The position numbers and the translations under genes were made by a program. A stretch of 44,581 bases of DNA from a phage: sequence record PZ445532.1; one strand, 5' to 3'. Below the pieces are notes generated by a model that saw nothing but the letters and a program-made list of their open reading frames with translations, made no database searches and was not told the origin of the DNA. Positions 11,811 through 24,335 of this stretch are shown in pieces; within the stretch, counting starts at the first letter, position 1; each line of letters starts with the position of its first letter.

Positions 11811-14453
11811 ATGGCAGATCAGGCAGCGGGCATCACGCTCAAGGCGGATGTTGCACAAATCAGAACGGCGAATACTGTACTTGATTCATTCGCACAGAAA
11901 TCTGAGAACACAGAACAGAAAGTAAAGAAATTAAACGACACCCTCGGCAAGTCGAAAAAGGTTACTGGCGACGCCGCGGGCGGAATGGAAAAGTTAGCGA
12001 CTGAATCGCAGCGTGCCGCCGATGGCATGACGAAACAAGAGCGACTCGCCAGCCGACTAGGCATGTCAACCAAAAACCTGGGATTCGCATCGCGGAACGC
12101 GGCATTCCAGTTACAGGATATCGCGGTTACGCTTGAGATGGGTATGCCGGTGCACCGCGTTATGCTTCAGCAGCTACCACAGCTAACCGGCGCATTTGGC
12201 GGACTGGGTAACACGCTGCGATATGTTGCAGGCTTCCTCGGCCCAGTAGGGATCGGACTTGCTGCCGTAACGGCGACGTTAGGCGTGGGTGTGGCAATTA
12301 CGTCACGGGCAGAGAACCAAGTAGCCGCGCTTAATAAGACGCTGGCGCTGTCCGGTAATATCTCCGGCCTCACAGCTAACCAGATCCTGGTGCTGTCCGA
12401 GAACGCCGAGCGCATGGGCGGGTCTTTTCGCAAGACGCGTGACACAATCCAGGCACTGGCGGCGGCTGGTGTGAAAGCGGGTGGTGACTTCGGCGCATTG
12501 GCTAAGGTAGTTAATGACTTTGCGAAGGTGTCCAGCCAGCCGATCGAGGATGTGGTGGCGGCGGTGGCTAAGCTGTCAACCGACCCCGTTGGCGGACTGC
12601 GTGCGCTGGCGGATAAGTATCACGTCGTAAACGAAGCGCAGATCCAGCAGGTACAGTCGCTCGTTGATGCGGGTCGTGAGACAGACGCAGTTGCGTTGGC
12701 TAACAAAACAGCCGCTGCGTCGTTCACCAGCATGACCAATGAAATCAAGTCCAACATGGGTACGCTTGAGCGGTCGATGAACGTCGTCACATCGGCAGCT
12801 AAATCTATGTGGGATGCAATCCTGGATGTGGGCCGCGCGCAGTCCTCGAATGAGTCAGAGATGAAAGCGCGTGAGTCATTGCAGCGCATGACCACGGCTT
12901 ATTATGCCGAGATGAAAGCGGTAAACGCTGCCGGTGGGGTAATGACTGAAGCGCAGAAAGCACGTATTAACATGCTTTACAGCGAACTGGTCGCCCAGGA
13001 AAAAGTGGTGGCGTCGCTCACCCTGCGCAACCGCGCCGAGCGTGACAACGCCCGCGCCGCGGATGAATCAGCAAAGGCGAACGAGGAGGCCAACCGCACT
13101 GCCCGTGACCGCGCCGCGTTCGAGAAGGAATACGCCACCAACGCTAAGAAGCGCGCCGACGAGATCGCCCGCCTCAATTTGCTGAATAAGCGCGGCGTTA
13201 TTGATGAGAAAGAACTAGCCGAGGCGGTTAAGCAGGTCAACGAGCGCTACAAAGACCCCGCCCCGAAGAAGGCCGCGGCTGTTCGCGTGGATGCCGGTAT
13301 GAAAATGCTGGAAGTCGCACGGAGCGAACTGGCCCAGCTTCGAGAATCCGGCAAGCAGATCGAAGCCAACGCGTCTACGCAGACCCGCACGCAACGCGCT
13401 CAAGCGGCCTTAAACAAGCTGATCGCCGACAATGAGCAGTTAATCGCTGCGAGCAAAGAAAGAGCGCTAACGGCAGCAGAAAAGCAGCAATTAGTCGAGT
13501 TCGGGCGCGTGAAGGAAGTCCGCGAGCAGATCGTCGAAGAAGCCAAATTGCTGGATGCGAAAGAGCAGCAGGTTAAGGCGCACGCGCAGATCGATGCCTT
13601 CGTTAAGAACCAGAACGCCGAACTAAAAGCCACCGCCGCGGGGTATGCGCTTTCCACTCGCGAAGCGGCAAACCTGCGCGAAGAATTGCAGCTAATTGAC
13701 CGCCTGAAGCGGGTTGGCGCTAACGATACCGATATTGACAAGGCGGTGTCTAAGCTGCGCGAAGTGCAGGAAGCACAGACCGGCGCTAACGCCTCGCTAT
13801 GGGATGGCTTCAGCCGCGGGCTTAAGGATAGCGTGGATGAAATGGGTAACGGATATACGCAGATGGCGACGCTAACGAAATTCACGTTCAGCGCTATGCA
13901 AGACACGATGAACGAGTTTTTCGAGACTGGCAAGCTGAACGCAAAGGATATGGTTAAATCCATCCTGAGCGAACTAATCAAGCTGGCTACCTCGCAGGCG
14001 TTCAAGTCCATCGTTAGCGCTTTCGGTGGCGACGGCGGCAAAAACGGATTGTTCGGCGCTATCTTCTCTGGCCTCACTAAGAATGCGGACGGCGGAGCGT
14101 ACGCAGGAGGCAATCTCGCGGCCTATTCGGGTAAAGTGGTAAGCCAGCCTACCTTTTTCAGTTATGGCGTCCAGGCGTTCGCTAAGGGCGCAGGATTGAT
14201 GGGGGAGGCCGGACCCGAGGCCATCATGCCACTGAAGCGCGGGCCGGACGGGAAACTGGGCGTTGCCGCGTCTGGCGCAGGTGGTGGTATGGTCGTGACG
14301 ACTAACGTTTACACGGGGACCGGTAAAACGGATACCAGTGTCAGCGGGCCGGACCCCCGTACTGCGCAGGCGTTCGGCAAGCAAATCACCGAGGCGGTGA
14401 AATCCGAGATCGTGAAGGCGACGAAACCGGGTGGTGTACTTTACAAACGATGA
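11811..14453 (+). CDS. tail tape measure protein
   Basis: 880-aa ORF, Ala/Gln/Lys-rich with long predicted helical segments and a glycine-rich C-terminal part. Canonical position. Confidence 0.9.
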   Translation: MADQAAGITLKADVAQIRTANTVLDSFAQKSENTEQKVKKLNDTLGKSKKVTGDAAGGMEKLATESQRAADGMTKQERLASRLGMSTKNLGFASRNAAFQLQDIAVTLEMGMPVHRVMLQQLPQLTGAFGGLGNTLRYVAGFLGPVGIGLAAVTATLGVGVAITSRAENQVAALNKTLALSGNISGLTANQILVLSENAERMGGSFRKTRDTIQALAAAGVKAGGDFGALAKVVNDFAKVSSQPIEDVVAAVAKLSTDPVGGLRALADKYHVVNEAQIQQVQSLVDAGRETDAVALANKTAAASFTSMTNEIKSNMGTLERSMNVVTSAAKSMWDAILDVGRAQSSNESEMKARESLQRMTTAYYAEMKAVNAAGGVMTEAQKARINMLYSELVAQEKVVASLTLRNRAERDNARAADESAKANEEANRTARDRAAFEKEYATNAKKRADEIARLNLLNKRGVIDEKELAEAVKQVNERYKDPAPKKAAAVRVDAGMKMLEVARSELAQLRESGKQIEANASTQTRTQRAQAALNKLIADNEQLIAASKERALTAAEKQQLVEFGRVKEVREQIVEEAKLLDAKEQQVKAHAQIDAFVKNQNAELKATAAGYALSTREAANLREELQLIDRLKRVGANDTDIDKAVSKLREVQEAQTGANASLWDGFSRGLKDSVDEMGNGYTQMATLTKFTFSAMQDTMNEFFETGKLNAKDMVKSILSELIKLATSQAFKSIVSAFGGDGGKNGLFGAIFSGLTKNADGGAYAGGNLAAYSGKVVSQPTFFSYGVQAFAKGAGLMGEAGPEAIMPLKRGPDGKLGVAASGAGGGMVVTTNVYTGTGKTDTSVSGPDPRTAQAFGKQITEAVKSEIVKATKPGGVLYKR

Positions 14454-14489: not shown

Positions 14490-15089
14490 ATGTCACAAGG
14501 TACAATCACATTAACTAAGGGGAGTAAGACCGTTACGGGCGTGGGGACGGCGTTCCTTAGCGAGATCGGGAAGGTACGTGTATTCACCCGCATCGACGGC
14601 AACGACTACACCGGCAAAATTGCAGCATTCAACTCGAACACGGTCATTACACTGAAAGATAACTGGGCCGGTCCGACGAAATCCGGTGCGGCATATGAGC
14701 TAATCGAAGCACACGACCCGCGATCAAACGAATGGCCCTATTACTGGCACATGCAATTGCAGGGCGGTGGCGACGTGCAGTTGGCTTTCCGGTCCGAGGA
14801 ATTGCAATTCGGTAATGGCTACGGGCAGAACATCGCGGACGGCCCGAACGCCGAAACGAAACAATTCCCCGTGCAATTCGTCGGGCTAACTACTGATAAG
14901 TGGTGCGACCCCAAACTGGTTTATAACTTCCTTCGCGGGCACTTCGTCAAGCCGTTTGTCGTCACCGCGCCGGATGGCGAAACAGGTTTATTCGTGGTCG
15001 AGCGTTCGAGCTTGTCATACACGGACAACGGGCACTACACGGCAACGGTATCCGCCACCCTGAAAACTGCTATTGGATTCGTAAGATGA
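14490..15089 (+). CDS. minor tail protein (gpM position; shares N-terminal motif with side tail fiber)
   Basis: 199-aa ORF. N-terminus TLTKGSKTVTGVGTAF resembles the N-terminus of the 21974 tail fiber (SVTNNSKAVVGVGTTF). Confidence 0.55.
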   Translation: MSQGTITLTKGSKTVTGVGTAFLSEIGKVRVFTRIDGNDYTGKIAAFNSNTVITLKDNWAGPTKSGAAYELIEAHDPRSNEWPYYWHMQLQGGGDVQLAFRSEELQFGNGYGQNIADGPNAETKQFPVQFVGLTTDKWCDPKLVYNFLRGHFVKPFVVTAPDGETGLFVVERSSLSYTDNGHYTATVSATLKTAIGFVR

Positions 15090-15874
15090 ATAAACTCTAT
15101 CGTGAAGCGACGCGCTTTGACCCCTCTGGACGCGTTCGCCTGATTCACATTGACGCGCAGGACGTGGAACCCGGAGACGGCGCGATCGGCGCGGGCCACC
15201 ACTATTTTCATTACTGCTTCATCCCACACACTGCGGAGGATATCGCTGCCGCGGGTGGTGACGAGGATAAGCTAAAACCCAAATCAATCTTCTTCGGTGG
15301 GCAGGAGTTCGAATTTTGGCCCTTCGATTTGTCCGGCCTTAACTTTTCCACATCGACGGCAGCAGAACCGCAACTAACAATCGTCGATATTGGCGGCATA
15401 ATAACCCGGCTGTCACTGAATCACGACCAGCTACTGGGCGCGAAGGTTGAAATAATCGACACATTCGCGAAGTTCCTGGACAACGGGTCAGATCCAGACC
15501 CGACGCAGAAACGAGTTCAGGAGTATTACATCGACTCGCAGGTCGGGCGCAATCCAGGCAAGCAAATCACCTTCGCACTATCCTCCCCCGCGGATATGGA
15601 AGGGCAGGTCGTCCCCCGTCGCCAAATCATGAATATGTGCGAATGGGCGCTCAACGGGAAGTACGCCAGCGGGGACGGATGCACTTGGAACCGTGCGAAG
15701 CCTGGGATCAAGTATTACGACGAGCGAGGTAATGAAGTCATTGCGATGAATATGGACCGATGCGGCGGATGTTTGTCCGACTGCTATCTTCGTTTTGGGC
15801 AAGGGCTTGCGGACCCTAAAGCGGCGGTGCTGGACTTCGGCGGCTTTCCGGGGTCCAGATTAATTAAGGGGTAG
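15086..15874 (+). CDS. minor tail protein (lambda gpL-like)
   Basis: 262-aa ORF; cysteine cluster CGGCLSDC near the C-terminus. Gene order M-L-K-I-J. Confidence 0.6.
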   Translation: MNKLYREATRFDPSGRVRLIHIDAQDVEPGDGAIGAGHHYFHYCFIPHTAEDIAAAGGDEDKLKPKSIFFGGQEFEFWPFDLSGLNFSTSTAAEPQLTIVDIGGIITRLSLNHDQLLGAKVEIIDTFAKFLDNGSDPDPTQKRVQEYYIDSQVGRNPGKQITFALSSPADMEGQVVPRRQIMNMCEWALNGKYASGDGCTWNRAKPGIKYYDERGNEVIAMNMDRCGGCLSDCYLRFGQGLADPKAAVLDFGGFPGSRLIKG

Positions 15875-15876
15875 TT

Positions 15877-16617
15877 ATGTTAACGAAGAAGGTTAAAAGC
15901 GATATCGCCGCACACGTCGCGGCCTGTCTGCCGGAAGAAGCCTGTGGCCTGGTTGTCATGGCGGGTCGCAAGCAAGTGTTCGTCCCATGTATGAACGTAT
16001 TCGAAGACCCTACCGGCGTGCGCTCACGCAAAGACGCGTTTACCATTAGCGACACAGCCTGGATGGATGCCGAGGATATGGGCGACGTCGTTCGCGTAGT
16101 CCACTCACACCCGGGTCAGCGCGAGTTAACCCCCTCACTGGGCGACGTTAACGGATGCAACGGCAGCGGCGTCGTCTGGACCATCACTAACGAATATGGC
16201 GACTTTATCGAGATAGACCCGGAAGACCCGCCGCTGGTAGGCCGCCGATTTGTTCTCGGAATTACGGATTGTTATGGCCTCGTCATGGACTGGCACAAAA
16301 AGCAGGGAGTAAATTTGCCAGACTTCCGCGTGCCGTATAACTGGTGGGAGACAGGCGAAAATCTGTATATGGATAATTGGTACGGTGCTGGCTTCAGGGA
16401 ATGCGAGGAGAATACGCCGGGGGCGATGGTTATCATGCAGATCAGCGCGCCAGTACCTAACCATGCCGGGATATTCCTTCCGGGCAACCAACTACTCCAC
16501 CATATCTACGGCAGCCTGTCGAGCGTGATACCCTTCCGGTCAGGATTTTTCCGGGACAATGTGGTTAAATGGGTACGTCATAAAGACCTACCGGGGAATA
16601 TAACAGAATGGCAATGA
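15877..16617 (+). CDS. tail assembly protein (lambda gpK-like, JAMM/MPN plus NlpC/P60)
   Basis: EEACG...HSHPGQRELTPSLGD matches the JAMM motif (E, HxH, S, D). Downstream Cys/His region DCYGLV...H is consistent with NlpC/P60. Confidence 0.75.
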   Translation: MLTKKVKSDIAAHVAACLPEEACGLVVMAGRKQVFVPCMNVFEDPTGVRSRKDAFTISDTAWMDAEDMGDVVRVVHSHPGQRELTPSLGDVNGCNGSGVVWTITNEYGDFIEIDPEDPPLVGRRFVLGITDCYGLVMDWHKKQGVNLPDFRVPYNWWETGENLYMDNWYGAGFRECEENTPGAMVIMQISAPVPNHAGIFLPGNQLLHHIYGSLSSVIPFRSGFFRDNVVKWVRHKDLPGNITEWQ

Positions 16618-17225
16618 CCACATTTAAATTATACGGCGTTTTAGGGCGTCGATTCGGTAAAGTGCATAAGCTGGACTGCTTCACTCCGGGCGAGGGTATC
16701 ACCGGCCTGTGCGTGAAGTTACCCGGCTTACAGGACTTTCTAATGTCGGCCCACCTGAACAATATGATGTTCAAGGTGCGCAAAGGCGACCACACGATGA
16801 CCGGCTATGATGAGCTGGGCGAGTTCCACGGCAACCGCGTAGTTACCATCGCGCCGGTTATGACGGGCGCAAAAAGAGGGTTGGGACAATTGCTGGCGGG
16901 TGTCGCGATCGTTGTGGCGTCGTTCTATACGGGCGGACTTGCTACTGCCGCTTTCGGGGCTTCGGCGGCGACCGCTGCCGCTATCGGGACGGCGACGTTT
17001 TCGTTCGGGATGTCGATGGCGCTGGGTGGCGTTATGCAATTGCTGTCGCCACAACCGAAAGGATTGCAGACAAGGCAGGACGTGGATAACAAGGCGTCGT
17101 ATGCGTTCGGCGGGCCTGTAAACACGACCGCGCAAGGTACAGCACTTGGTGTATTATGGGGTGAGCGTGAGATCGGCGGCGCTATTATTTCAGCCGGAAT
17201 CGTAACCGAGGACTTGAACGAATGA
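16608..17225 (+). CDS. tail assembly protein (lambda gpI-like)
   Basis: 205-aa ORF with a hydrophobic Gly/Ala-rich C-terminal half, between the K-like and J-like genes. Confidence 0.6.
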   Translation: MAMTTFKLYGVLGRRFGKVHKLDCFTPGEGITGLCVKLPGLQDFLMSAHLNNMMFKVRKGDHTMTGYDELGEFHGNRVVTIAPVMTGAKRGLGQLLAGVAIVVASFYTGGLATAAFGASAATAAAIGTATFSFGMSMALGGVMQLLSPQPKGLQTRQDVDNKASYAFGGPVNTTAQGTALGVLWGEREIGGAIISAGIVTEDLNE

Positions 17226-20200
17226 CGATTATCTACGACGTCACAGGGCATAAAGGCGGCGGCGGCAAACAGCACACCCCACAGGAGACGCCAGACAGCC
17301 TGCATTCGCTGGCTAAAATCCGCATCTTGCTTGCGCTGGGGGAAGGGGAATTCGAAAGTATTACCAGCGCCAGCGAATTGCGGCAGCGTGTTTACTTGGA
17401 TGGAACGCCGATCCAGAACGCTGACCTGTCCGAAAACTTCCCTGGCGCGCGTGTGGAGTTCCGCCCCGGCACACAGCACCAGGATGTGATCCACGGATTT
17501 TCAGCGGTGGAAAGTGAGCAATCTGTCGGCGTAAAACTGGAAAACGGCACGCCGTGGGTGCGCCAGATTAACGACACCAGTTTGGACGCCGTGCGCATCC
17601 GAGTCGGCATACCAGCCCTGTACACTAACGAAGATAATGGCGACCTGGTGGGCGGGCGCATCGACTATAAAATCGTTGTGTATACGGATAATGCCGACCC
17701 GCGTGAGTTCAGATTCGCCGCCGTTGGTAAAACAATGTCGCTGTATGAGCGCGACCACCGCATCGAATTACCGCCGAACGTGAATACCGGCTGGCGAGTG
17801 GAGGTGCACCGCATAACGGCGGACTCCACATCGGCGAAAGTGGTTAATGATATCCGGGTGCAGTCCATCACTGAGATTATTGACGCCCGTCTGCGTTACC
17901 CGCTAACCGCGCTGTTGTTTGTGGAGTTCGACGCCAAAGCGTTCCAGAACATCCCGCGCGTGTCCATCAAGTGCAAAGGCCGCAAAGTTCTAATACCGAA
18001 CAACTACGACCCGATTAACCATACCTATTCCGGGGACTGGGACGGCACGTTTAAACGCGCATGGACGGATAACCCTGCGTGGCACTGGTACGATATTTGT
18101 ATTACTGAGCGCTTCGGCCTCGGTCGGCGTATCAAACCGCAAATGTTGAACCGGTACGCGCTCTACCAGATTGCGCAGCGCTGTGATCAGTTGGTCAGCG
18201 ACGGCAACGGTGGGCAAGAAATCCGCTTTAAGAATGATATGTACATCCAGTCGCAGACAGACGCCTGGACCGTGCTTAAGGATTTAGCCGCCATCTTCGC
18301 CGGAATGACCTGGTGGGGCAACCAGATGTTGAATATCGTCAGTGACCAACCGGTCGCAGCGGTGTCCCACACTATCACCAACGCATCGGTTATTGATGGG
18401 CGCTTCGACTACGCGTCCGGTAGCCAGAAAACTCGATACTCCACGTTCGCGGTAGCATACGGCAACCCGAAGAACCACTATGAAGATGCCATCGCAACGG
18501 GGCAACGTGTCGAACTGGTACGCCGCCATAAGATTAACCGTCTTGATATTACGGCGATCGGCTGTACGCGTGAATCTGAAGCGCAACGCCGCGGGCACTG
18601 GGCGTTAATTTCCAACCAGCTTGACCAGCAAGTTAGCTTTAAAGTTGGCATGGAAGGGTTATTCTTTATTCCTGGTAGCGTAGTCGCGATCGCAGATACT
18701 AATATTTCTGGCGGATTCGAGACTCGTGGCGGTCGACTGTTGTCAGACCCCGGAACGCGTACCGTGCTGAACACGGACAGCGAAATCACGTTCCGCCCTG
18801 GCGATAAGTTCCTGGTGCGCACCGATAGCGGTAATGTGGAGACTCGCGAGATCGCCAGCGTCAACGGCAACAAGGTTACGCTAAAAACTGCACTGGATGC
18901 CGACCCGATTCCAGACCAGCCGTTTTGCGTTGATGGCAACGATATCCAGTTGCAGAAGTTCCGCATAACCGACCTGGAATATGACGACTCTACCAGCACT
19001 TTTTCGGTGCGCGGGATTGAATACAACGATAGCAAATATGATGCCGTTGATAATGGCGCGCGCCTTGACCCAGGCATCTTTACGCAAGTGCCTGACGGCG
19101 TAATGAAGGGGCCGGAATCCGTGACCATAACCCCGTCGCAGATTTCATCGCAAGGCCAGCTAATCACCAACGTGGATATTGTTTTCCCGCCGGTGAAGGA
19201 CGCCGTGGTGTATGAAATACAGTGGCGGCGCACCAGCTTACAGAATATGGAAATCCAGTGGGGTAACGACTGGGTGAATATCCCACGCACGGCGTCGAAT
19301 GGGGCGCACATCCCCAACGTGTTCTCCGGTAACTATCAGGCACGCGTCCGCGCAATCGGTATGGGTGAAATCTCGTCCCCGTGGGTGTCATCCGCAATCA
19401 CGCCGGTGGAAGGTCGCCTCGGTGGGCTTAACGCACCAATCATCACCAACGCGATTTCGGGCCTACACCAAATTTTGTGGAAGTGGAACCACAACAACGC
19501 CGCTACTGATATCTCTTACACCGAGCTTGAAGTGCGCAAGACTGGTGAGACTGAATGGAAATTCCTTACCAACGTTCCATATCCGGGCGCGGAGTACGCG
19601 CAAACGTCGCTTGAGTTCGGCATCTACCAGCAGTTGCGCGCCCGTGTAGCAGATAAAATCGGCAACCTGTCGGACTGGTCGGCCCCGTTTGAAGGGCAGG
19701 TAAGTGACAACGTTGACGAGTACATGAAGGGGCTTGATAACGAGTTCTTGACTTCCGAGGATGGTAAACACTTCCAGGAAGCTATTAACACGATCCCGCA
19801 AGGCATTTATGAGTCAATGCTCACCGACGCCCAGCAGCTATTCAACGCCCGCGCCGAGTACAAAGGGATTTATGCGGAAATCAAGGTGGCGTATAACGTG
19901 GCGGCAGACGCCAACAAGGCGGTAGCACAACTGGAAACGTTGATCGGCACGCGCCTTGATGACGCTGAAGCATCAATCCACACGTTGCAGACTGCGCAAA
20001 GCACACATGAAAAAGCGTTCGCCCAGTACCAGCAGACTGTTGCCGCTAAGTTTTCGGAACAGGAAGCCGCCATCCAGCAGGTACAAACGGCAACGGCGGA
20101 CGTGGCTGGCGCACTGGCGGAGTACAAGACCCAGGTCGCGGCGCAGTTCGGTCAGCAGTCCGCCGCGATCGAGCAGAAGATGACGTCTTCGTTTAACCAT

Positions 20201-20641
20201 GCGGGTGGCAGCGCCACGTACAGTCTTAAGGCTGGCGTGACGTATAACGGGACTTACTATGACGCCGGTATGCAGCTTTCCGTCGTGACGTCGGGCAACG
20301 CGGTTAAATCCCGCATCGCATTCAAGGCGGATCAGTTCTACATTATGCACCCATCTAATGGGTCGCTTTCTTCCGCTTTTATCGTGGATGGCGGGCAGGT
20401 GTATATTGACACGGCACGCATCAAGGACGCGTCAATCAACTTTGCACAGATCACGGACACGCTGCAATCGAATAACTACGACGGCAGTACGCGTGGTTGG
20501 CGCTTAGGGAAAGACGGAACGTTTATCAACCTGGGGACTGGAAGCGGTGGTGGTACAAAGCAGACCAACACCAACTACAGCGTTAAAGACGAGAACGGTG
20601 TTTTACGCGTGCAAATTGGCGAGCTTACTGGTCGCTGGTAG
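17222..20641 (+). CDS. central tail fiber / host specificity protein (lambda gpJ-like)
   Basis: 1139-aa ORF, similar in size to lambda J (about 1130 aa). Follows the I-like gene and is followed by a terminator. Confidence 0.85.
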   Translation: MTIIYDVTGHKGGGGKQHTPQETPDSLHSLAKIRILLALGEGEFESITSASELRQRVYLDGTPIQNADLSENFPGARVEFRPGTQHQDVIHGFSAVESEQSVGVKLENGTPWVRQINDTSLDAVRIRVGIPALYTNEDNGDLVGGRIDYKIVVYTDNADPREFRFAAVGKTMSLYERDHRIELPPNVNTGWRVEVHRITADSTSAKVVNDIRVQSITEIIDARLRYPLTALLFVEFDAKAFQNIPRVSIKCKGRKVLIPNNYDPINHTYSGDWDGTFKRAWTDNPAWHWYDICITERFGLGRRIKPQMLNRYALYQIAQRCDQLVSDGNGGQEIRFKNDMYIQSQTDAWTVLKDLAAIFAGMTWWGNQMLNIVSDQPVAAVSHTITNASVIDGRFDYASGSQKTRYSTFAVAYGNPKNHYEDAIATGQRVELVRRHKINRLDITAIGCTRESEAQRRGHWALISNQLDQQVSFKVGMEGLFFIPGSVVAIADTNISGGFETRGGRLLSDPGTRTVLNTDSEITFRPGDKFLVRTDSGNVETREIASVNGNKVTLKTALDADPIPDQPFCVDGNDIQLQKFRITDLEYDDSTSTFSVRGIEYNDSKYDAVDNGARLDPGIFTQVPDGVMKGPESVTITPSQISSQGQLITNVDIVFPPVKDAVVYEIQWRRTSLQNMEIQWGNDWVNIPRTASNGAHIPNVFSGNYQARVRAIGMGEISSPWVSSAITPVEGRLGGLNAPIITNAISGLHQILWKWNHNNAATDISYTELEVRKTGETEWKFLTNVPYPGAEYAQTSLEFGIYQQLRARVADKIGNLSDWSAPFEGQVSDNVDEYMKGLDNEFLTSEDGKHFQEAINTIPQGIYESMLTDAQQLFNARAEYKGIYAEIKVAYNVAADANKAVAQLETLIGTRLDDAEASIHTLQTAQSTHEKAFAQYQQTVAAKFSEQEAAIQQVQTATADVAGALAEYKTQVAAQFGQQSAAIEQKMTSSFNHAGGSATYSLKAGVTYNGTYYDAGMQLSVVTSGNAVKSRIAFKADQFYIMHPSNGSLSSAFIVDGGQVYIDTARIKDASINFAQITDTLQSNNYDGSTRGWRLGKDGTFINLGTGSGGGTKQTNTNYSVKDENGVLRVQIGELTGRW

Positions 20642-20677: not shown

Positions 20678-20980
20678 ATGGCATTCGGTATCGCAACGTG
20701 GGACGCGCAAGGACGCCCAAACAACTACGGCATTAAACCGGTAAGCGTGATCGGAAGGATTCATCTTGCGGAAGGACAAAAATCAGGCGCATGGTCATTC
20801 CCTGTACCGGCGGGGATGAAGGTCGGATACGTGGTCGCACTGGATAAAGGCGCGGTCGGGCCAGGACGCAGAATAACCGCCAGCGGGAACACTATCACGG
20901 TTTCCGCGGCAAGTGAGGTTGGGGGCGGGGTTTACTCCGCATCTGAATGTGACGTTATTGTTTTTGTGGAGCGAGCATAA
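20678..20980 (+). CDS. hypothetical protein
   Basis: 100-aa ORF after the J-like gene. Confidence 0.5.
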   Translation: MAFGIATWDAQGRPNNYGIKPVSVIGRIHLAEGQKSGAWSFPVPAGMKVGYVVALDKGAVGPGRRITASGNTITVSAASEVGGGVYSASECDVIVFVERA

Positions 20981-21654
20981 TGGCTAATTACGGCGCGTTG
21001 ATTGACTTACCAAACGGCAACCCGTTTATCACGCCAGAATCGACGCCGTTTTGTCTATTCCGCCGTGTGGTTGTTGGGTCTTCGGCTAACGGCACTGCGC
21101 AGTCGGCGGCTGCCGATATTAATTTGGGCGGTGACTACCCTGCAATAGCGTTTGTGAAAACTACGCACACCGCCCAGCCGACCGTCGTAGGGTCTTCTCG
21201 CGTTGGTAATGTGGTGAAGGTGAGCGCCAGCAATCCATTCGGGCAAGGCTTCACGATGACGGCTTACATCTTTGCCATATTCCCACAGACCCTTCCGCGG
21301 TGGGGCTTCGCTATTTGGGATAAGACGGGGAAGCTAGTGCTTACTAATGAGAGTCGCGTACTAAGCGATTTAGTTACCGTCGGATCGCCAGGCGCTAACG
21401 GGGGGATTAACATTGACCAGACGCTAAATGGCAGCTACGCCGTCGCTCCTGGCATATTGGGGTCTACGCTGATCAGGTTTTTTGTGCAGGGCCAGCCGCA
21501 AGTAATATCGGTAACGGCGTACACGGGGGCCAGATTCGATGGGTCGCGAACGCGTATATCGGCAGCGTCGTCGGGGAACGCCACGGGGGATGTGGTGGGG
21601 TATACTAACAACGGCAACGCGATTATGGCGATTAACACTGCCAATTATGATTGA
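20980..21654 (+). CDS. hypothetical protein (tail-associated by position)
   Basis: 224-aa ORF. Its ATG overlaps the upstream stop. Confidence 0.5.
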   Translation: MANYGALIDLPNGNPFITPESTPFCLFRRVVVGSSANGTAQSAAADINLGGDYPAIAFVKTTHTAQPTVVGSSRVGNVVKVSASNPFGQGFTMTAYIFAIFPQTLPRWGFAIWDKTGKLVLTNESRVLSDLVTVGSPGANGGINIDQTLNGSYAVAPGILGSTLIRFFVQGQPQVISVTAYTGARFDGSRTRISAASSGNATGDVVGYTNNGNAIMAINTANYD

Positions 21655-21680
21655 AGAAAGCCCCTTTCGGGGCTTATTTA
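21655..21680. terminator. hairpin shared by convergent genes (weak terminator)
   Basis: AAGCCCC-TTTC-GGGGCTT. Modest T-tracts on both sides. Confidence 0.45.
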
Positions 21681-21892
21681 CAGGTTGTGCTTTTGAAGTG
21701 GTCAACCGACACATACTGGAAGTTGAAGGGGTATCCCGCCCGTAACATTTTATGACCGCTAACGTCTGCAACCCCAAACACAGGGACGGAATACTCCATA
21801 CCACTATTCATGTATGTTGCGTCGCAGATTTTAGACGGCATGTCGGCACAACCCGCCAACAGAACCGCACAAATCATAATTAAAGTTTTCAT
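21674..21892 (-). CDS. small lipoprotein, candidate superinfection-exclusion protein (Cor/Llp-like)
   Basis: 72 aa from MKTLIMICAVLLAGCADMP (RBS AGGAG). Lipobox LLAGC. Antisense between tail genes. Confidence 0.6.
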   Translation of the reverse strand: MKTLIMICAVLLAGCADMPSKICDATYMNSGMEYSVPVFGVADVSGHKMLRAGYPFNFQYVSVDHFKSTTCK

Positions 21893-21973
21893 GGTATCAT
21901 CTCCTATATTTGGTTGGGTTTTAGTATTGCACCGCTCAACCAAGAATGCAACCAATTTTATGAGGATTCAGCT

Positions 21974-23734
21974 ATGGCAGCGGGTACACTATCCGTAACG
22001 AATAACAGCAAGGCGGTTGTCGGGGTAGGCACGACGTTTACCGCATTTAAAGCTGGCGACTTCTTAACGCTGGTGGTGGGGCAAGTCCCTTACACTGTTG
22101 CTATCGCGTCCGTCGAAAGCGACACCGCGCTTACGCTGGTGCTGCCGTTCGACGGCCCCACGGCAACCGGCCTTGCCTGGGATGGCGTTGCGCGCGATAC
22201 CATGTCGCTGGCAACGATGGGCGTAACAGTCCAGGCCCAAAAAGCATTGCGCTTGCTGATTGCAGATGAAAACAACTGGCGTGCAATCTTCGGCGACGCT
22301 GAAGAAATCACAGTGACTTTACCTAACGGGCAAGTTATGCAGGGTATGTCTTGGGGATACCTGTCGTCTTTGCTGAAGGAAGTCGACCCCGTTGAGATGC
22401 GCAACCTGCAACAACAAGCCGCCGCATCTGAAGACGCCGCGCAAGGATTTCGCAATGAGGCCGAAGGATTCAAGAATGAGACGGCTGGTATTCGCGACGC
22501 CACCAATCAGATTAAGGCGGATACGCAGGCGATCCACGACGCCACCGATGCGATCAAGACGCAAACCAACCAGATTAAGACTGATACGCAGGCTATAAAA
22601 GACCAGACCAACCAGATTAAGACGGATACTGGCGCTATTCGAGATCAGGCCAATACGGCGAAGACGGAAGCGCAAGCTGCCCGTGACGCCGCGCAGGGGT
22701 ATCGGAACGAGGCCGAACAATTTAAGAATGAGATTGACCCGTCGAAATTTCTGGCTAAGTCCAGCAACCTTAGCGACGTTGCTGACCCGGCGGCAGCGCG
22801 CGGGCACTTAGGCATCGGGACGACGGACACCCTTAACGTGGGCGGTCTGGTAACGTCCGGCGGTATCTCCGCGGGTCGTAACTCATGGGATGGATCTAAC
22901 TGGGGCAGTAAGAGTATTCTCGCCTCATTCGCTATCATATCCCCCGACGGAATCTCAACCCCTGGCTTATACGTGCGTAAATCCAATGGCGAGGCCGGTT
23001 ATGCCTCTGACTGGTTGTATTTTGAAAGCACGAATGCATGGGCCACTAAATCCAGTATTATTGGCGATCAGTTCCGATCCACTAAAGGCGCGATGGGATA
23101 TAACCAACTATGGTCGGAGGCTGTTGTACGAGCGGACCCATACACCGCGCAGGCCTACGCGGAAAACTTTCAGTCGTTAATCGCCGGTGCGTGTAAAACA
23201 CAAGGCATAGGCTACGAGGGCGGTGTTTCGTTTGGGATGATGACCACCGGTAACGACAACTGGCCCTGGGCACAGATCTCGATCGGCACAGCGGACCGTG
23301 ACTACGCGGGGAATATGGCTTCGTATATGCACTTCCGCTTTGACGACCAGGGGCGGATTTCTTACAGCGGGCCTGCGGGTGTTGGGTCGTTCCAGAAAGT
23401 ACCTGCGTCGGATCGCAACCTGAAACATGATATTGAAGATGACTCCAGCAGCACCGCCTACGACAATATCAAGGCTTTGCGGTTCCGTACGTTCGTATTC
23501 AACAACGATGAACAGGAACGGCAGCGTCGCGGTATTATTGCGCAGGAAGCGGAAGAAATAGACCCGCTGTACGTGAAGCATCGCGTGTATAACAACCAGG
23601 AATTAAATGGGCCACTAGTGCACCAGTTAGAACTAGACCCGACGCCGCTGTTACTTGATACTATGCGCGCATTGCAAGATACGATTAAGCAGGTGGAGGC
23701 GTTGAAAGCCGAGATCGCGGCGCTGAAGCAATAA
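21974..23734 (+). CDS. side tail fiber with C-terminal intramolecular chaperone (peptidase S74-like) domain
   Basis: 586 aa from MAAGTLSV (RBS TGAGGA). Repeats of the type IRDATNQIKADTQAIHDATDAIKTQTNQIKTDTQAIKDQTNQIKTDT. C-terminal SDRNLKHDI block resembles the self-cleaving chaperone domain of T5 pb1 / endosialidases. Confidence 0.8.
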   Translation: MAAGTLSVTNNSKAVVGVGTTFTAFKAGDFLTLVVGQVPYTVAIASVESDTALTLVLPFDGPTATGLAWDGVARDTMSLATMGVTVQAQKALRLLIADENNWRAIFGDAEEITVTLPNGQVMQGMSWGYLSSLLKEVDPVEMRNLQQQAAASEDAAQGFRNEAEGFKNETAGIRDATNQIKADTQAIHDATDAIKTQTNQIKTDTQAIKDQTNQIKTDTGAIRDQANTAKTEAQAARDAAQGYRNEAEQFKNEIDPSKFLAKSSNLSDVADPAAARGHLGIGTTDTLNVGGLVTSGGISAGRNSWDGSNWGSKSILASFAIISPDGISTPGLYVRKSNGEAGYASDWLYFESTNAWATKSSIIGDQFRSTKGAMGYNQLWSEAVVRADPYTAQAYAENFQSLIAGACKTQGIGYEGGVSFGMMTTGNDNWPWAQISIGTADRDYAGNMASYMHFRFDDQGRISYSGPAGVGSFQKVPASDRNLKHDIEDDSSSTAYDNIKALRFRTFVFNNDEQERQRRGIIAQEAEEIDPLYVKHRVYNNQELNGPLVHQLELDPTPLLLDTMRALQDTIKQVEALKAEIAALKQ

Positions 23735-23740
23735 GGCTAA

Positions 23741-23761
23741 GGGGCCATACGGCCCCTTTTT
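23741..23761. terminator. rho-independent terminator between convergent genes
   Basis: GGGGCC-ATAC-GGCCCC followed by TTTTT. Confidence 0.8.
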
Positions 23762-24335
23762 AGTTTGAGTTTTCCCAGTCCATTTTGCGCCGCACCAGCG
23801 GGCTTTCGTAATATTCCTTCCCATCCACCTCCACTAAGGGCCAGTCATTAACGATGACGTAAGGCTCTGCGATATCCTCGATCACGCCGTGCGCGCTATG
23901 TTGTCCGAAATCTACGCCCACCAGGATAACCCCGGCAACGCGACGAGTGAGATACTCGCGAGCGCAACGTGCCTCGACCAGTCCTCGACGTATGCCGCTA
24001 GTGGCTTTAACCTCGTAGGTCCATACGGCATCGATCACATGCTCGCGGAAGTCGGGGCCGGATTTAGCCTTACGCTTTCCAACCATGATAATATCGCCGC
24101 GGTCGATAGTGTTAGCGCTAAACAGGCCGGTACGCATTAGCAAACCTTGCGGGATGCAACTACGCCCGCCTGCCTGCCCTTCGAGGTACATTCCTGCAAA
24201 CATTTCGCCCAGCACACCGACAAGGCGACTTTGCTTGCAAGCGTCGGACTTATACCTCCACTGGTCAAACTCGATGCTTGCGATCATTGCCGCAAGGTGG
24301 AATTGTTTACCGGTTATTTCATATTCGCCGTACAT
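23760..24335 (-). CDS. hypothetical protein (possible PD-(D/E)xK-like motif)
   Basis: 191-aa ORF, RBS GAGGGA. GDIIMVG ... TYEVKAT could be a D...ExK nuclease motif. Weak. Confidence 0.5.
   Translation of the reverse strand: MYGEYEITGKQFHLAAMIASIEFDQWRYKSDACKQSRLVGVLGEMFAGMYLEGQAGGRSCIPQGLLMRTGLFSANTIDRGDIIMVGKRKAKSGPDFREHVIDAVWTYEVKATSGIRRGLVEARCAREYLTRRVAGVILVGVDFGQHSAHGVIEDIAEPYVIVNDWPLVEVDGKEYYESPLVRRKMDWENSN

What the first reader, a model, noticed from the sequence alone, without database searches (positions are those of the whole stretch)
21974..23734. Side tail fiber with self-cleaving chaperone-like C-terminus, and an N-terminal motif shared with the 14490 gene
The C-terminal block SDRNLKHDIEDD...YDNIKALRFRTF resembles the intramolecular chaperone domain that is cleaved off after trimerisation in T5 pb1 and endosialidases. 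The central region holds repeats of the TDTQAIKDQTNQIK type. The N-terminus (SVTNNSKAVVGVGTTF) resembles that of the protein at 14490 (TLTKGSKTVTGVGTAF), suggesting a shared attachment domain or an old domain exchange.
Basis: partly seen in the sequence, partly recalled or inferred. Interest (0 to 1): 0.4.

Follow-up and report, generated by a model that had tools for sequence, protein, structure and literature searches.

The report
Dhillonvirus lateral tail fibre, self-cleaving chaperone
This gene encodes an ordinary, already described type of phage side tail fibre whose C-terminal folding domain very probably cuts itself off. Its N-terminal anchor is an old copy of a small, widespread domain that this phage also carries on its distal tail protein.

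Summary

- **Gene.** The ORF at 21974-23734 (586 aa) is the lateral tail fibre of a Dhillonvirus-type E. coli siphophage. It is 85% identical to Bas85 Gp29, a published fibre with a coiled coil, a T5-like tip and a C-terminal chaperone. Bas83-85, which carry this fibre type, use their lateral fibres on O16 O-antigen.
- **C-terminus.** Residues 479-586 match Peptidase_S74 (E = 2.8e-12). The Ser479/Lys484 pair is invariant in 65 homologues.
- **Centre.** The "repeats" are 15 heptads of a coiled coil.
- **N-terminus.** The similarity to the 14490 protein covers about 70 aa (E = 7e-8; shuffle z = 15.9). It is a beta-barrel domain found in more than 4,000 protein clusters. The 14490 protein is the distal tail protein (Dit), 97% identical in the printed PDB alignment to 23gd chain B.

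The two copies are old paralogues, 33-36% identical. They are probably not docking partners: sister phages whose Dit lacks the domain keep a 94%-identical fibre anchor. The anchor instead tracks the helical shaft of the central fibre, which is where the homologous F-pyocin side fibres dock.

Verdict: interpretation supported, biology already known, low interest.

The parts
21962..21966 (+). Shine-Dalgarno-like GAGGA, 7 nt upstream of the fibre ATG
   Evidence: Read directly from the sequence.
21974..23734 (+). Lateral tail fibre gene (586 aa plus stop)
   Evidence: ORF. phrog_1980 tail fiber, E = 1.8e-138. 85% aa identity to Bas85 Gp29.
21974..22189 (+). N-terminal beta-barrel anchor domain (aa 1-72)
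   Evidence: AlphaFold2 strands at aa 5-72, model pLDDT 85.7. The family profile hits 23gd_B at E = 2.8e-26 and the F2-pyocin side-fibre N-domain at E = 5.6e-5. Median identity among homologues is 97%.
22190..22387 (+). Stem: long helix (aa 74-105), beta-hairpin (112-124), short helix (127-135)
   Evidence: AlphaFold2 model. Median identity among homologues is 91%.
22388..22732 (+). Heptad coiled-coil shaft (aa 139-253), including a 63-bp x2 DNA repeat at 22502-22624
22733..22870 (+). Linker with the conserved NLSDVAD..AR..LG motif (aa 254-299); zone where similarity to other fibres breaks down
   Evidence: N265 and L266 are invariant. Median identity falls from 80% to 41% to 15% across this zone. 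Most DNA hits end at query nt 748-935. The motif also matches repeats in 9zd7 gp92.
22871..23407 (+). Variable distal receptor-binding tip (aa 300-478)
   Evidence: Median identity of 15% among homologues. phrog_5481 matches aa 365-586. The Bas85 homologue is described as having a T5-like tip (PMC11990801). The monomer AlphaFold2 model is poor here.
23408..23731 (+). Peptidase_S74 intramolecular chaperone domain (aa 479-586); predicted cleavage just before Ser479, with Lys484 as the second catalytic residue
   Evidence: Pfam. S479 and K484 are invariant in 65 sequences. Foldseek matches 7dc3 and 3gw6. phmmer hits 8hqz_d at E = 4e-11.
23739..23758 (+). Intrinsic-terminator-like hairpin between the fibre gene and the convergent gene at 23760-24335
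   Evidence: 8-bp stem with 6 GC pairs, followed by a T-run.
14490..14705 (+). Paralogous beta-barrel domain fused to the N-terminus of the distal tail protein (aa 1-72)
14739..15086 (+). gpM-like distal tail protein core (aa 84-199)
   Evidence: Pfam Phage_min_tail, 44.3 bits against a cut-off of 39. 193 of 199 residues match PDB 23gd_B, 'Distal tail protein gp20', in the printed alignment.
19769..20191 (+). Helical shaft of the J-like central fibre (gpJ aa ~850-990); candidate docking site for the fibre anchor (inferred)
   Evidence: Homologous to the central fibres of T1 and the F2 pyocin. Its divergence tracks that of the fibre anchor in L002 and L005.

Best explanation
The gene encodes the homotrimeric lateral (side) tail fibre of a Dhillonvirus-type coliphage. 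It is built from modules.

- **aa 1-138:** a beta-barrel and helical stem that anchor the fibre to the tail tip.
- **aa 139-253:** a trimeric heptad coiled coil that forms the shaft.
- **aa 254-299:** a conserved linker where recombination swaps the distal half.
- **aa 300-478:** a variable T5-like tip that binds a surface glycan. In the close relatives Bas83-85 the target is O16-type O-antigen. This lets the phage cross the O-antigen layer before the central fibre engages its porin.
- **aa 479-586:** a Peptidase_S74 intramolecular chaperone. It nucleates trimer folding and then removes itself by Ser479/Lys484 autoproteolysis, leaving a mature fibre of about 50.7 kDa.

The N-terminal beta-barrel belongs to a very large family of fibre-anchor domains. 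An old, diverged copy (33-36% identical) is fused to the N-terminus of this phage's distal tail protein, as a peripheral decoration. That copy is not needed for fibre attachment.

By homology with F-type pyocins, the fibre anchor most likely docks on the coiled-coil shaft of the J-like central fibre.

- **Shown here:** domain identities, conserved catalytic residues, homology statistics, the mosaic pattern and the comparison with sister phages.
- **Inferred:** trimer state, cleavage, glycan specificity and docking site.
For: **Identity.** phrog_1980 tail fiber, E = 1.8e-138. The window is 91-94% identical at DNA level to Dhillonvirus genomes. The fibre is 85% aa identical to Bas85 Gp29. PMC11990801 describes Gp29 as a coiled coil plus T5-like tip plus C-terminal chaperone domain, and reports that the lateral fibres of Bas83-85 target O16 O-antigen.

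**Chaperone domain.** Pfam S74, E = 2.8e-12. S479 and K484 are invariant in 65 homologues even though the domain itself has only 42% median identity. Foldseek hits the MyRF ICA domain 7dc3 (E = 1.3e-4, target TM-score 0.61-0.65) and the endosialidase chaperone 3gw6. phmmer hits a T5-like L-shaped fibre, 8hqz_d, at E = 4e-11.

**Coiled coil.**

**Modular exchange.** Median identities by segment are 97, 91, 80, 41, 15 and 42%.

**N-domain.**
- BLASTP E = 7e-8 and shuffle z = 15.9.
- The two-sequence profile finds 4,124 clusters among 1.84 billion representatives. Of the 145 top proteins my local re-scan scored, 115 carry a single copy at or near the extreme N-terminus (within the first ~30 residues). 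One of those 115 is the only Dit fusion seen.
- The AlphaFold2 model has pLDDT 85.7.
- The family profile hits the F2-pyocin side-fibre N-domain at E = 5.6e-5.

**Docking site.**
- Three F-pyocin cryo-EM studies show this domain binding the central-fibre coiled coil (PMC13455828, PMC12874032, 10.64898/2026.02.24.707460).
- The window's gpJ matches the F2-pyocin central fibre at E = 3e-225.
- L002-L004 have a 123-aa Dit without the domain, with a core 63% identical. Their fibre anchor is 94% identical and gpJ is 88-100% identical up to residue 1050.
- L005 has a 61%-identical anchor, and its gpJ shaft is 8-52% identical with deletions.
Against: - No protein-level data exist for this phage. Cleavage, trimer state and specificity are all inferred.
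- The tip (aa 300-478) is only about 72% identical to the tips of Bas83-85-like fibres, so O16 specificity may not carry over.
- The monomer AlphaFold2 model of the tip is unreliable, with pLDDT 30-50.
- The docking inference rests on homology plus only two comparator lineages.
- The L002-type phages carry a roughly 150-aa insertion in gpL that could compensate for the missing Dit domain.
- The pyocin attachment segment itself did not align with the window's gpJ. The alignment starts downstream, at central-fibre residue 977.
- The fibre N-domain is mildly acidic (net charge about -3). The pyocin anchor uses basic residues against an acidic shaft.
Confidence: 0.85

Rival explanations
1. The Dit-borne beta-barrel is the docking partner of the fibre's homologous beta-barrel. 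Six Dit copies and six fibre copies (two per trimer) would form a mixed 12-member collar at the tube-tip junction. This would resemble the dodecameric collars of Ur-lambda Stf and T5 p132.
For: - Both copies are strongly conserved within the genus: 92-97% for the Dit copy and about 97% for the fibre copy.
- Dodecameric collars at the Dit level are known (PMC12617516).
- In F-pyocins only two of the three N-domains of each trimer engage.
- The Dit copy is mildly basic (pI 9.2) and the fibre copy acidic (pI 4.3).
Against: - L002-L004 keep a 94%-identical anchor while their Dit lacks the domain.
- L005 has neither the Dit domain nor the gpL insertion, yet still has a fibre with this anchor.
- T1 and the F-pyocins have short Dits, and the pyocin fibres dock on the central fibre.
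- No fibre chain of this type is in the PDB. Entry 23gd holds the Dit, the hub protein and the J-like protein.
- The charge difference is small compared with the spread across the family.
Confidence: 0.12
2. The Dit N-domain is an independent peripheral decoration, for example a weak cell-surface or glycan contact or a structural brace. It would be interchangeable with other decorations such as the gpL insertion in L002-type phages, and unrelated in function to fibre anchoring.
For: - Alternative arrangements occur in otherwise near-identical tail modules: Dit with the domain plus a short gpL, or a short Dit plus gpL with a ~150-aa insertion.
- The gpL insertion matches a domain of the roseophage R4C Megatron protein at E = 1.6e-4.
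- The domain also occurs as tandem arrays in large repeat proteins that carry PKD or peptidase C25 domains.
Against: No ligand or binding site was identified. L005 has neither decoration, so it is dispensable in at least one lineage. This reading is compatible with the best explanation rather than opposed to it.
Confidence: 0.5
3. The C-terminal S74-like domain is retained in the mature fibre as a structural cap or as part of the receptor-binding tip, and is not cleaved.
For: No proteomic data exist for this phage. The retained-domain idea rests on my own general knowledge; no uncleaved S74 example was retrieved here.
Against: The Ser/Lys pair is invariant in 65 homologues although the domain has only 42% median identity. 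The Pfam match starts exactly at Ser479. The fold matches auto-processing domains.
Confidence: 0.1
4. The N-terminal similarity reflects a recent duplication or gene conversion within this genome, or is simply chance.
For: The two genes lie 7.5 kb apart in the same tail module.
Against: - Chance is excluded: z = 15.9 and E = 7e-8.
- Identity between the two copies is only 33-36%.
- The Dit copy is 45-50% identical to the fibre N-domains of Citrobacter-type prophages.
- The fibre copy is 55-61% identical to that same group.
Confidence: 0.03

Closest known systems
Lateral tail fibre Gp29 of Escherichia phage RuthEpting (Bas85) and the fibres of Gluttony, Lust and Pride (Dhillonvirus)
   Same: 85% aa identity over the full length. 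The gene sits in the same position, after the J-like gene and the receptor-binding locus. The architecture is the same: anchor, coiled coil, T5-like tip, C-terminal chaperone (PMC11990801).
   Different: The receptor-binding tip is only about 72-78% identical, so glycan specificity may differ. The adjacent central-fibre receptor module also differs: it is Cor/FhuA-type here, as in JLBYU60, and predicted LptD-type in Bas85.
L-shaped tail fibre pb1 of phage T5 and the DT57C/T5-like fibre (PDB 8hqz)
   Same: C-terminal S74 chaperone with an S-x4-K motif directly after the tip (E = 4e-11). Both are thought to bind O-antigen as a dispensable first receptor (PMC8594841).
   Different: T5 pb1 is much longer (my own knowledge; the 8hqz chain is 1,076 aa). 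It attaches through a separate dodecameric p132 collar, not through an N-terminal beta-barrel of this family (PMC12617516). No similarity was detected outside aa 457-584.
Endosialidase (endoNF) C-terminal intramolecular chaperone (PDB 3gw6) and the MyRF ICA domain (PDB 7dc3)
   Same: Same Pfam family (PF13884). Same fold by Foldseek. Same Ser-Lys catalytic pair at five-residue spacing (the endoNF residue numbering is from my own knowledge).
   Different: The upstream domains are different: a sialidase beta-propeller and stalk in one case, a eukaryotic transcription factor in the other. Sequence identity is only 12-19%.
F-type pyocin side fibres (PyoF13; PA0643 and PA0646; PDB 25ve)
   Same: Homologous N-terminal beta-barrel anchor of about 75 aa followed by a helical stem (profile E = 5.6e-5). 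The central fibre is homologous, with a coiled-coil shaft (E = 3e-225).
   Different: The pyocin fibres have R-pyocin-like tips and separate chaperone genes, with no S74 domain. The pyocin Dit has no N-terminal copy of the domain. Docking on the shaft is shown for pyocins and only inferred here.
Ur-lambda side tail fibre Stf
   Same: A side fibre anchored by an N-terminal beta domain plus helix. Both speed or enable adsorption ahead of central-fibre binding.
   Different: No detectable sequence relation to the Stf N-domain. Twelve Stf N-domains form a collar around the gpV/gpM junction. Folding needs a separate chaperone, Tfa, rather than an S74 domain (my own knowledge).

Membership tests
Peptidase_S74 / intramolecular chaperone auto-processing domain (PF13884) | Profile match above the curated threshold | tested here: met
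   47.1 bits against a cut-off of 22, E = 2.8e-12, aa 479-534 on profile positions 1-57 of 58.
Peptidase_S74 / intramolecular chaperone auto-processing domain (PF13884) | Catalytic Ser and Lys five residues apart at the start of the domain | tested here: met
   S479 and K484 (SDRNLK) are invariant in an alignment of 65 fibres.
Peptidase_S74 / intramolecular chaperone auto-processing domain (PF13884) | Fold of the solved chaperone domains | tested here: met
   Foldseek: 7dc3 at E = 1.3e-4 with target TM-score 0.61-0.65, and 3gw6 at E = 1e-3. pLDDT is 75-89 over aa 480-586.
Peptidase_S74 / intramolecular chaperone auto-processing domain (PF13884) | Autoproteolytic release after trimerisation | not testable with these tools
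   Needs virion mass spectrometry or S479A/K484A mutants.
Dhillonvirus lateral tail fibre (Bas85 Gp29 type) | Full-length sequence similarity and conserved gene position | tested here: met
   85% identity with no gaps. Same order of Dit, gpL, gpK, gpI, gpJ, receptor-binding locus and fibre, followed by a convergent gene.
Dhillonvirus lateral tail fibre (Bas85 Gp29 type) | O16-type O-antigen specificity | not testable with these tools
   The tip is about 72% identical to its relatives. Needs plating on K-12 with restored O16 antigen, with and without gtrS.
F-pyocin-type side-fibre N-terminal anchor domain | Sequence homology to the solved anchor domain | tested here: met
   Family profile against 25ve_A residues 5-75, E = 5.6e-5. 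Dit copy against 25ve_A, E = 7.9e-5.
F-pyocin-type side-fibre N-terminal anchor domain | Beta-barrel followed by a helical stem | tested here: met
F-pyocin-type side-fibre N-terminal anchor domain | Docks on the coiled-coil shaft of the central fibre | tested here: inconclusive
   Indirect only. The anchor stays conserved with gpJ and not with the Dit in L002, and it diverges together with the shaft in L005. The pyocin attachment segment did not align with the window's gpJ.
gpM-like distal tail protein (Phage_min_tail, PF05939), for the 14490 protein | Profile match above threshold and identity to a solved Dit | tested here: met
   44.3 bits against a cut-off of 39 over aa 86-187. 193 of 199 residues match 23gd_B 'Distal tail protein gp20' in the printed alignment, E = 6e-133.

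The most novel reading that the evidence does not exclude
The paralogous beta-barrels on the distal tail protein and on the fibre co-assemble in the virion into a mixed collar, with like binding like. In this reading the Dhillonvirus side fibres have moved from the central-fibre shaft, where pyocin fibres sit, to the Dit ring. The short-Dit sister phages would compensate through their gpL insertion.
Probability: 0.12. Interest if true: 0.4.

Novelty: already known. Interest (0 to 1): 0.15.

Why it matters
- **Annotation.** The gene can be labelled as a lateral tail fibre, with domain boundaries, a predicted maturation site (before Ser479) and a recombination-prone linker. These are useful for host-range engineering of Dhillonvirus phages.
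- **Uncatalogued domain.** The N-terminal beta-barrel anchor has more than 4,000 clusters but no Pfam or NCBIfam model.
- **Attachment site.** The comparison with short-Dit sister phages gives a cheap, testable argument for where these fibres attach.

None of this changes current understanding of phage tail fibres.

Tried and rejected
- **Word-indexed homologue search with the 80-aa N-domain.** It returned nothing. I replaced it with a full HMMER scan of representatives.
- **Full-length monomer AlphaFold2.** The model was poor (mean pLDDT 57) outside the coiled coil and the chaperone domain. I did not use it for the tip or the N-domain.
- **Paper behind PDB 23gd.** Literature searches found nothing, so I could not learn where its Dit N-domains sit.
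- **NCBIfam.** It gave only coiled-coil noise such as SMC and Rad50.
- **Charge complementarity between the Dit copy (pI 9.2) and the fibre copy (pI 4.3).** I considered it as evidence for pairing. The net charges are small (about +1 to +2 against -3) and fall within or near the family spread, so I set it aside.
- **The TTG start at 21914,** used in some database entries such as the 630-aa ZCEC10 protein. I rejected it in favour of the ATG at 21974.
Full report
**What the window is.** The first 25 kb of the window is 91-94% identical at DNA level to Dhillonvirus coliphages such as Lust, JLBYU60 and EC115. The tail module reads:

| Coordinates | Product |
|---|---|
| 11811-14453 | tape measure protein |
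| 14490-15089 | 199-aa gpM-like protein |
| 15086-15874 | gpL |
| 15877-16617 | gpK |
| 16608-17225 | gpI |
| 17222-20641 | J-like central fibre |
| 20678-21654 | two small proteins (100 aa and 224 aa) |
| 21674-21955, minus strand | Cor-like lipoprotein |
| 21974-23734 | the ORF in question |

A terminator-like hairpin (23739-23758) and a convergent gene follow.

**Checking the observation.** All three parts hold.

- *The ORF.* It runs from the ATG at 21974 to the stop at 23734 (586 aa), with GAGGA 7 nt upstream.
- *The C-terminal block.* It begins at Ser479 and matches Pfam Peptidase_S74 from the first profile position, E = 2.8e-12 and above the curated threshold.
- *The central repeats.* They are 15 uninterrupted heptads over aa 152-256. 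The core positions hold I/F/Y/A and T/A/I. A 63-bp unit is duplicated at DNA level. AlphaFold2 predicts one long helix over aa 139-253 at pLDDT 80-90.
- *The N-terminal similarity to the 14490 protein.* It covers 70 aa rather than 16. Identity is 36% with no gaps, E = 7e-8. The score lies 15.9 standard deviations above 5,000 shuffles. The two proteins also hit each other's PHROG families.

**What the fibre is.** PHROGs places it in a tail-fibre family at E = 1.8e-138. It is 85% identical, without gaps, to Gp29 of phage RuthEpting (Bas85), which occupies the same gene position.

The BASEL follow-up paper (PMC11990801) describes Gp29 as an N-terminal coiled coil joined to a T5-like receptor-binding tip with a C-terminal intramolecular chaperone. 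It also reports that the lateral fibres of Bas83-85 target O16-type O-antigen. Recognition fails when the antigen is glucosylated by GtrABS. The fibre is dispensable on rough strains. An earlier paper (PMC8594841) had already noted that the Dhillonvirus lateral-fibre locus is variable except at its far 5' end.

My alignment of 64 homologues quantifies that pattern:

| Segment | Median identity to the window fibre |
|---|---|
| anchor beta-barrel | 97% |
| stem | 91% |
| coiled coil | 80% |
| linker | 41% |
| tip | 15% |
| chaperone | 42% |

The breakpoint falls at a conserved NLSDVAD..AR..LG motif, where N265 and L266 are invariant. Most DNA-level hits stop at nt 748-935 of the gene.

**The chaperone domain.**

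- Ser479 and Lys484 are invariant in all 65 aligned fibres, although the rest of the domain diverges.
- The confident part of the full-length model (aa 480-586) matches the MyRF auto-processing domain 7dc3 (target TM-score 0.61-0.65). It also matches the endosialidase chaperone 3gw6.
- The sequence matches a T5-like L-shaped fibre, 8hqz, at E = 4e-11. The S-x4-K motif aligns.
- Cleavage before Ser479 would leave a 50.7 kDa mature fibre and release a 12.5 kDa fragment.

Cleavage is inferred. No proteomic data exist for this phage.

**The shared N-terminal domain.** The 14490 protein is the distal tail protein, Dit. Residues 86-187 match Phage_min_tail. The whole protein matches PDB 23gd chain B, "Distal tail protein gp20", at 193 of 199 residues in the printed alignment. 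Entry 23gd also holds near-identical copies of gpJ and gpL. No fibre of this type is in the PDB.

A two-sequence profile of the domain found 4,124 clusters at E <= 0.001 among 1.84 billion representatives. A local re-scan of the top hits scored 145 of them:

- 115 carry a single copy at or near the extreme N-terminus of the protein, within the first ~30 residues. Most of these proteins are 250-800 aa long, and many share the fibre's stem or S74 C-terminus.
- One of those 115 is the only Dit fusion. Its cluster has 461 members, and the named ones are E. coli phages or E. coli.
- 30 carry two to thirteen internal copies in large repeat proteins, some with PKD or peptidase C25 domains.

Neither Pfam nor NCBIfam has a model for the domain.

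With a deep alignment, AlphaFold2 gives a confident model of aa 1-145 (pLDDT 85.7). It has a beta-barrel at aa 5-72, a long helix at 74-105, a hairpin at 112-124 and a short helix at 127-135.

**How the anchor probably works.** Three independent cryo-EM studies of F-type pyocins show the homologous N-domain docking on a kinked segment of the central fibre's trimeric coiled-coil shaft. Two of the three protomers of each side-fibre trimer engage (PMC13455828, PMC12874032, 10.64898/2026.02.24.707460).

The window's gpJ is closer to the F2-pyocin central fibre (E = 3e-225) and to T1 gp33 (E = 7e-205) than to lambda J (E = 5e-87). It has a comparable helical shaft.

**Is the Dit copy the fibre's partner?** A natural comparison argues that it is not. 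The last homologue search found Dit relatives of 122-125 aa that lack the N-domain. Their contigs give the following picture:

| Contigs | Dit | gpL | gpJ vs window | Fibre anchor (aa 1-138) vs window |
|---|---|---|---|---|
| L002-L004 | 123 aa, no N-domain, core 63% identical | 415 aa, with a ~150-aa insertion | 88-100% up to residue 1050 (lower at the extreme C-terminus) | 94% (measured in L002) |
| L005 | 123 aa, core 53% identical | 264 aa | shaft (aa 801-1000) 8-52%, with deletions | 61% |

So the anchor is kept when the Dit domain is absent, and it diverges together with the gpJ shaft.

The two window copies are also not each other's closest relatives. The Dit copy is 45-50% identical to the fibre N-domains of Citrobacter-type prophages. 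The fibre copy is 55-61% identical to that same group. The two window copies are 33-36% identical to each other. This points to an old domain transfer onto the Dit. The Dit copy is best read as a peripheral decoration.

Three caveats apply:

- There are only two comparator lineages.
- The gpL insertion in L002-type phages might compensate for the missing domain. It matches a domain of the R4C Megatron protein at E = 1.6e-4.
- The pyocin attachment segment itself did not align with the window's gpJ.

**Comparison with known systems, and novelty.** Everything about the fibre has close precedent: its position, architecture, chaperone domain and mosaic evolution. It is an 85-89% identical allele of described proteins.

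I did not find the Dit-fibre paralogy stated in the searchable literature. The Dit structure is, however, already deposited, and the domain family is large. I rate the finding as already known in kind and of low interest.

The most novel reading not excluded is a mixed Dit-fibre collar. I give it about 12% probability.

Noticed in passing
window 20678-21955: The receptor-binding module downstream of gpJ holds a 100-aa ORF (20678-20980), a 224-aa protein (phrog_425, 'membrane associated protein') and a minus-strand Cor-like lipoprotein (phrog_1119, E = 1.4e-27). It resembles the FhuA-using phage JLBYU60 and differs from the predicted LptD-type module of Bas85. This phage therefore combines a JLBYU60-like central-fibre module with a Bas83-85/Gluttony-like lateral fibre.
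   Followed up: partly
P0121-P0125, P0137, P0140-P0149 and others (one search hits): The ~70-aa fibre-anchor beta-barrel also occurs as 2-13 tandem internal copies in large proteins of 600-2,900 aa. Sources name some of them 'PKD repeat protein', 'uncharacterized repeat protein (TIGR01451 family)' or 'putative baseplate assembly protein' (a cyanobacterial MAG). One carries peptidase C25 and SdrD_B domains. The domain has no Pfam or NCBIfam model.
   Followed up: partly
L002:10362-11609 (also L003, L004): Dhillonvirus-like contigs with a short (123 aa) Dit have a gpL of 415 aa rather than 262 aa. The extra ~150 aa (roughly aa 57-215) match a domain of the roseophage R4C 'Megatron' protein (8gtc_M, E = 1.6e-4) and no Pfam family. 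It looks like an alternative tail-tip decoration to the Dit N-domain.
   Followed up: partly
window 17222-20641: The J-like central fibre is much closer to the F2-pyocin central fibre (E = 3e-225) and to T1 gp33 (E = 7e-205) than to lambda J (E = 5e-87). It is nearly identical to 23gd_D over aa 1-1100 and diverges at the extreme C-terminus, where L002 is also only 28% identical.
   Followed up: partly
window 23739-23758: A GC-rich hairpin (AAGGGGCC-ATAC-GGCCCCTT) with a T-run lies in the 25-nt gap between the fibre stop codon and the stop of the convergent gene at 23760-24335. It is a likely bidirectional terminator marking the end of the structural gene block.
   Followed up: no
window 21914-21973: An in-frame TTG at 21914 extends the fibre ORF by 20 codons, and some database entries use such a start (for example the 630-aa ZCEC10 protein). 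It overlaps the 5' end of the Cor gene on the other strand and lacks the Shine-Dalgarno sequence that precedes the ATG at 21974. It is probably a mis-annotation.
   Followed up: partly
window 22733-22870 (fibre aa 254-299): The linker motif (K..NLSDVAD..AAR..LG) matches a motif repeated four times in PDB 9zd7 'short tail fiber gp92' (best stretch i-E = 0.013; whole-protein E = 2.8e-5). It coincides with the point where similarity among Dhillonvirus fibres collapses, so it may serve as a recombination joint shared across fibre families.
   Followed up: no
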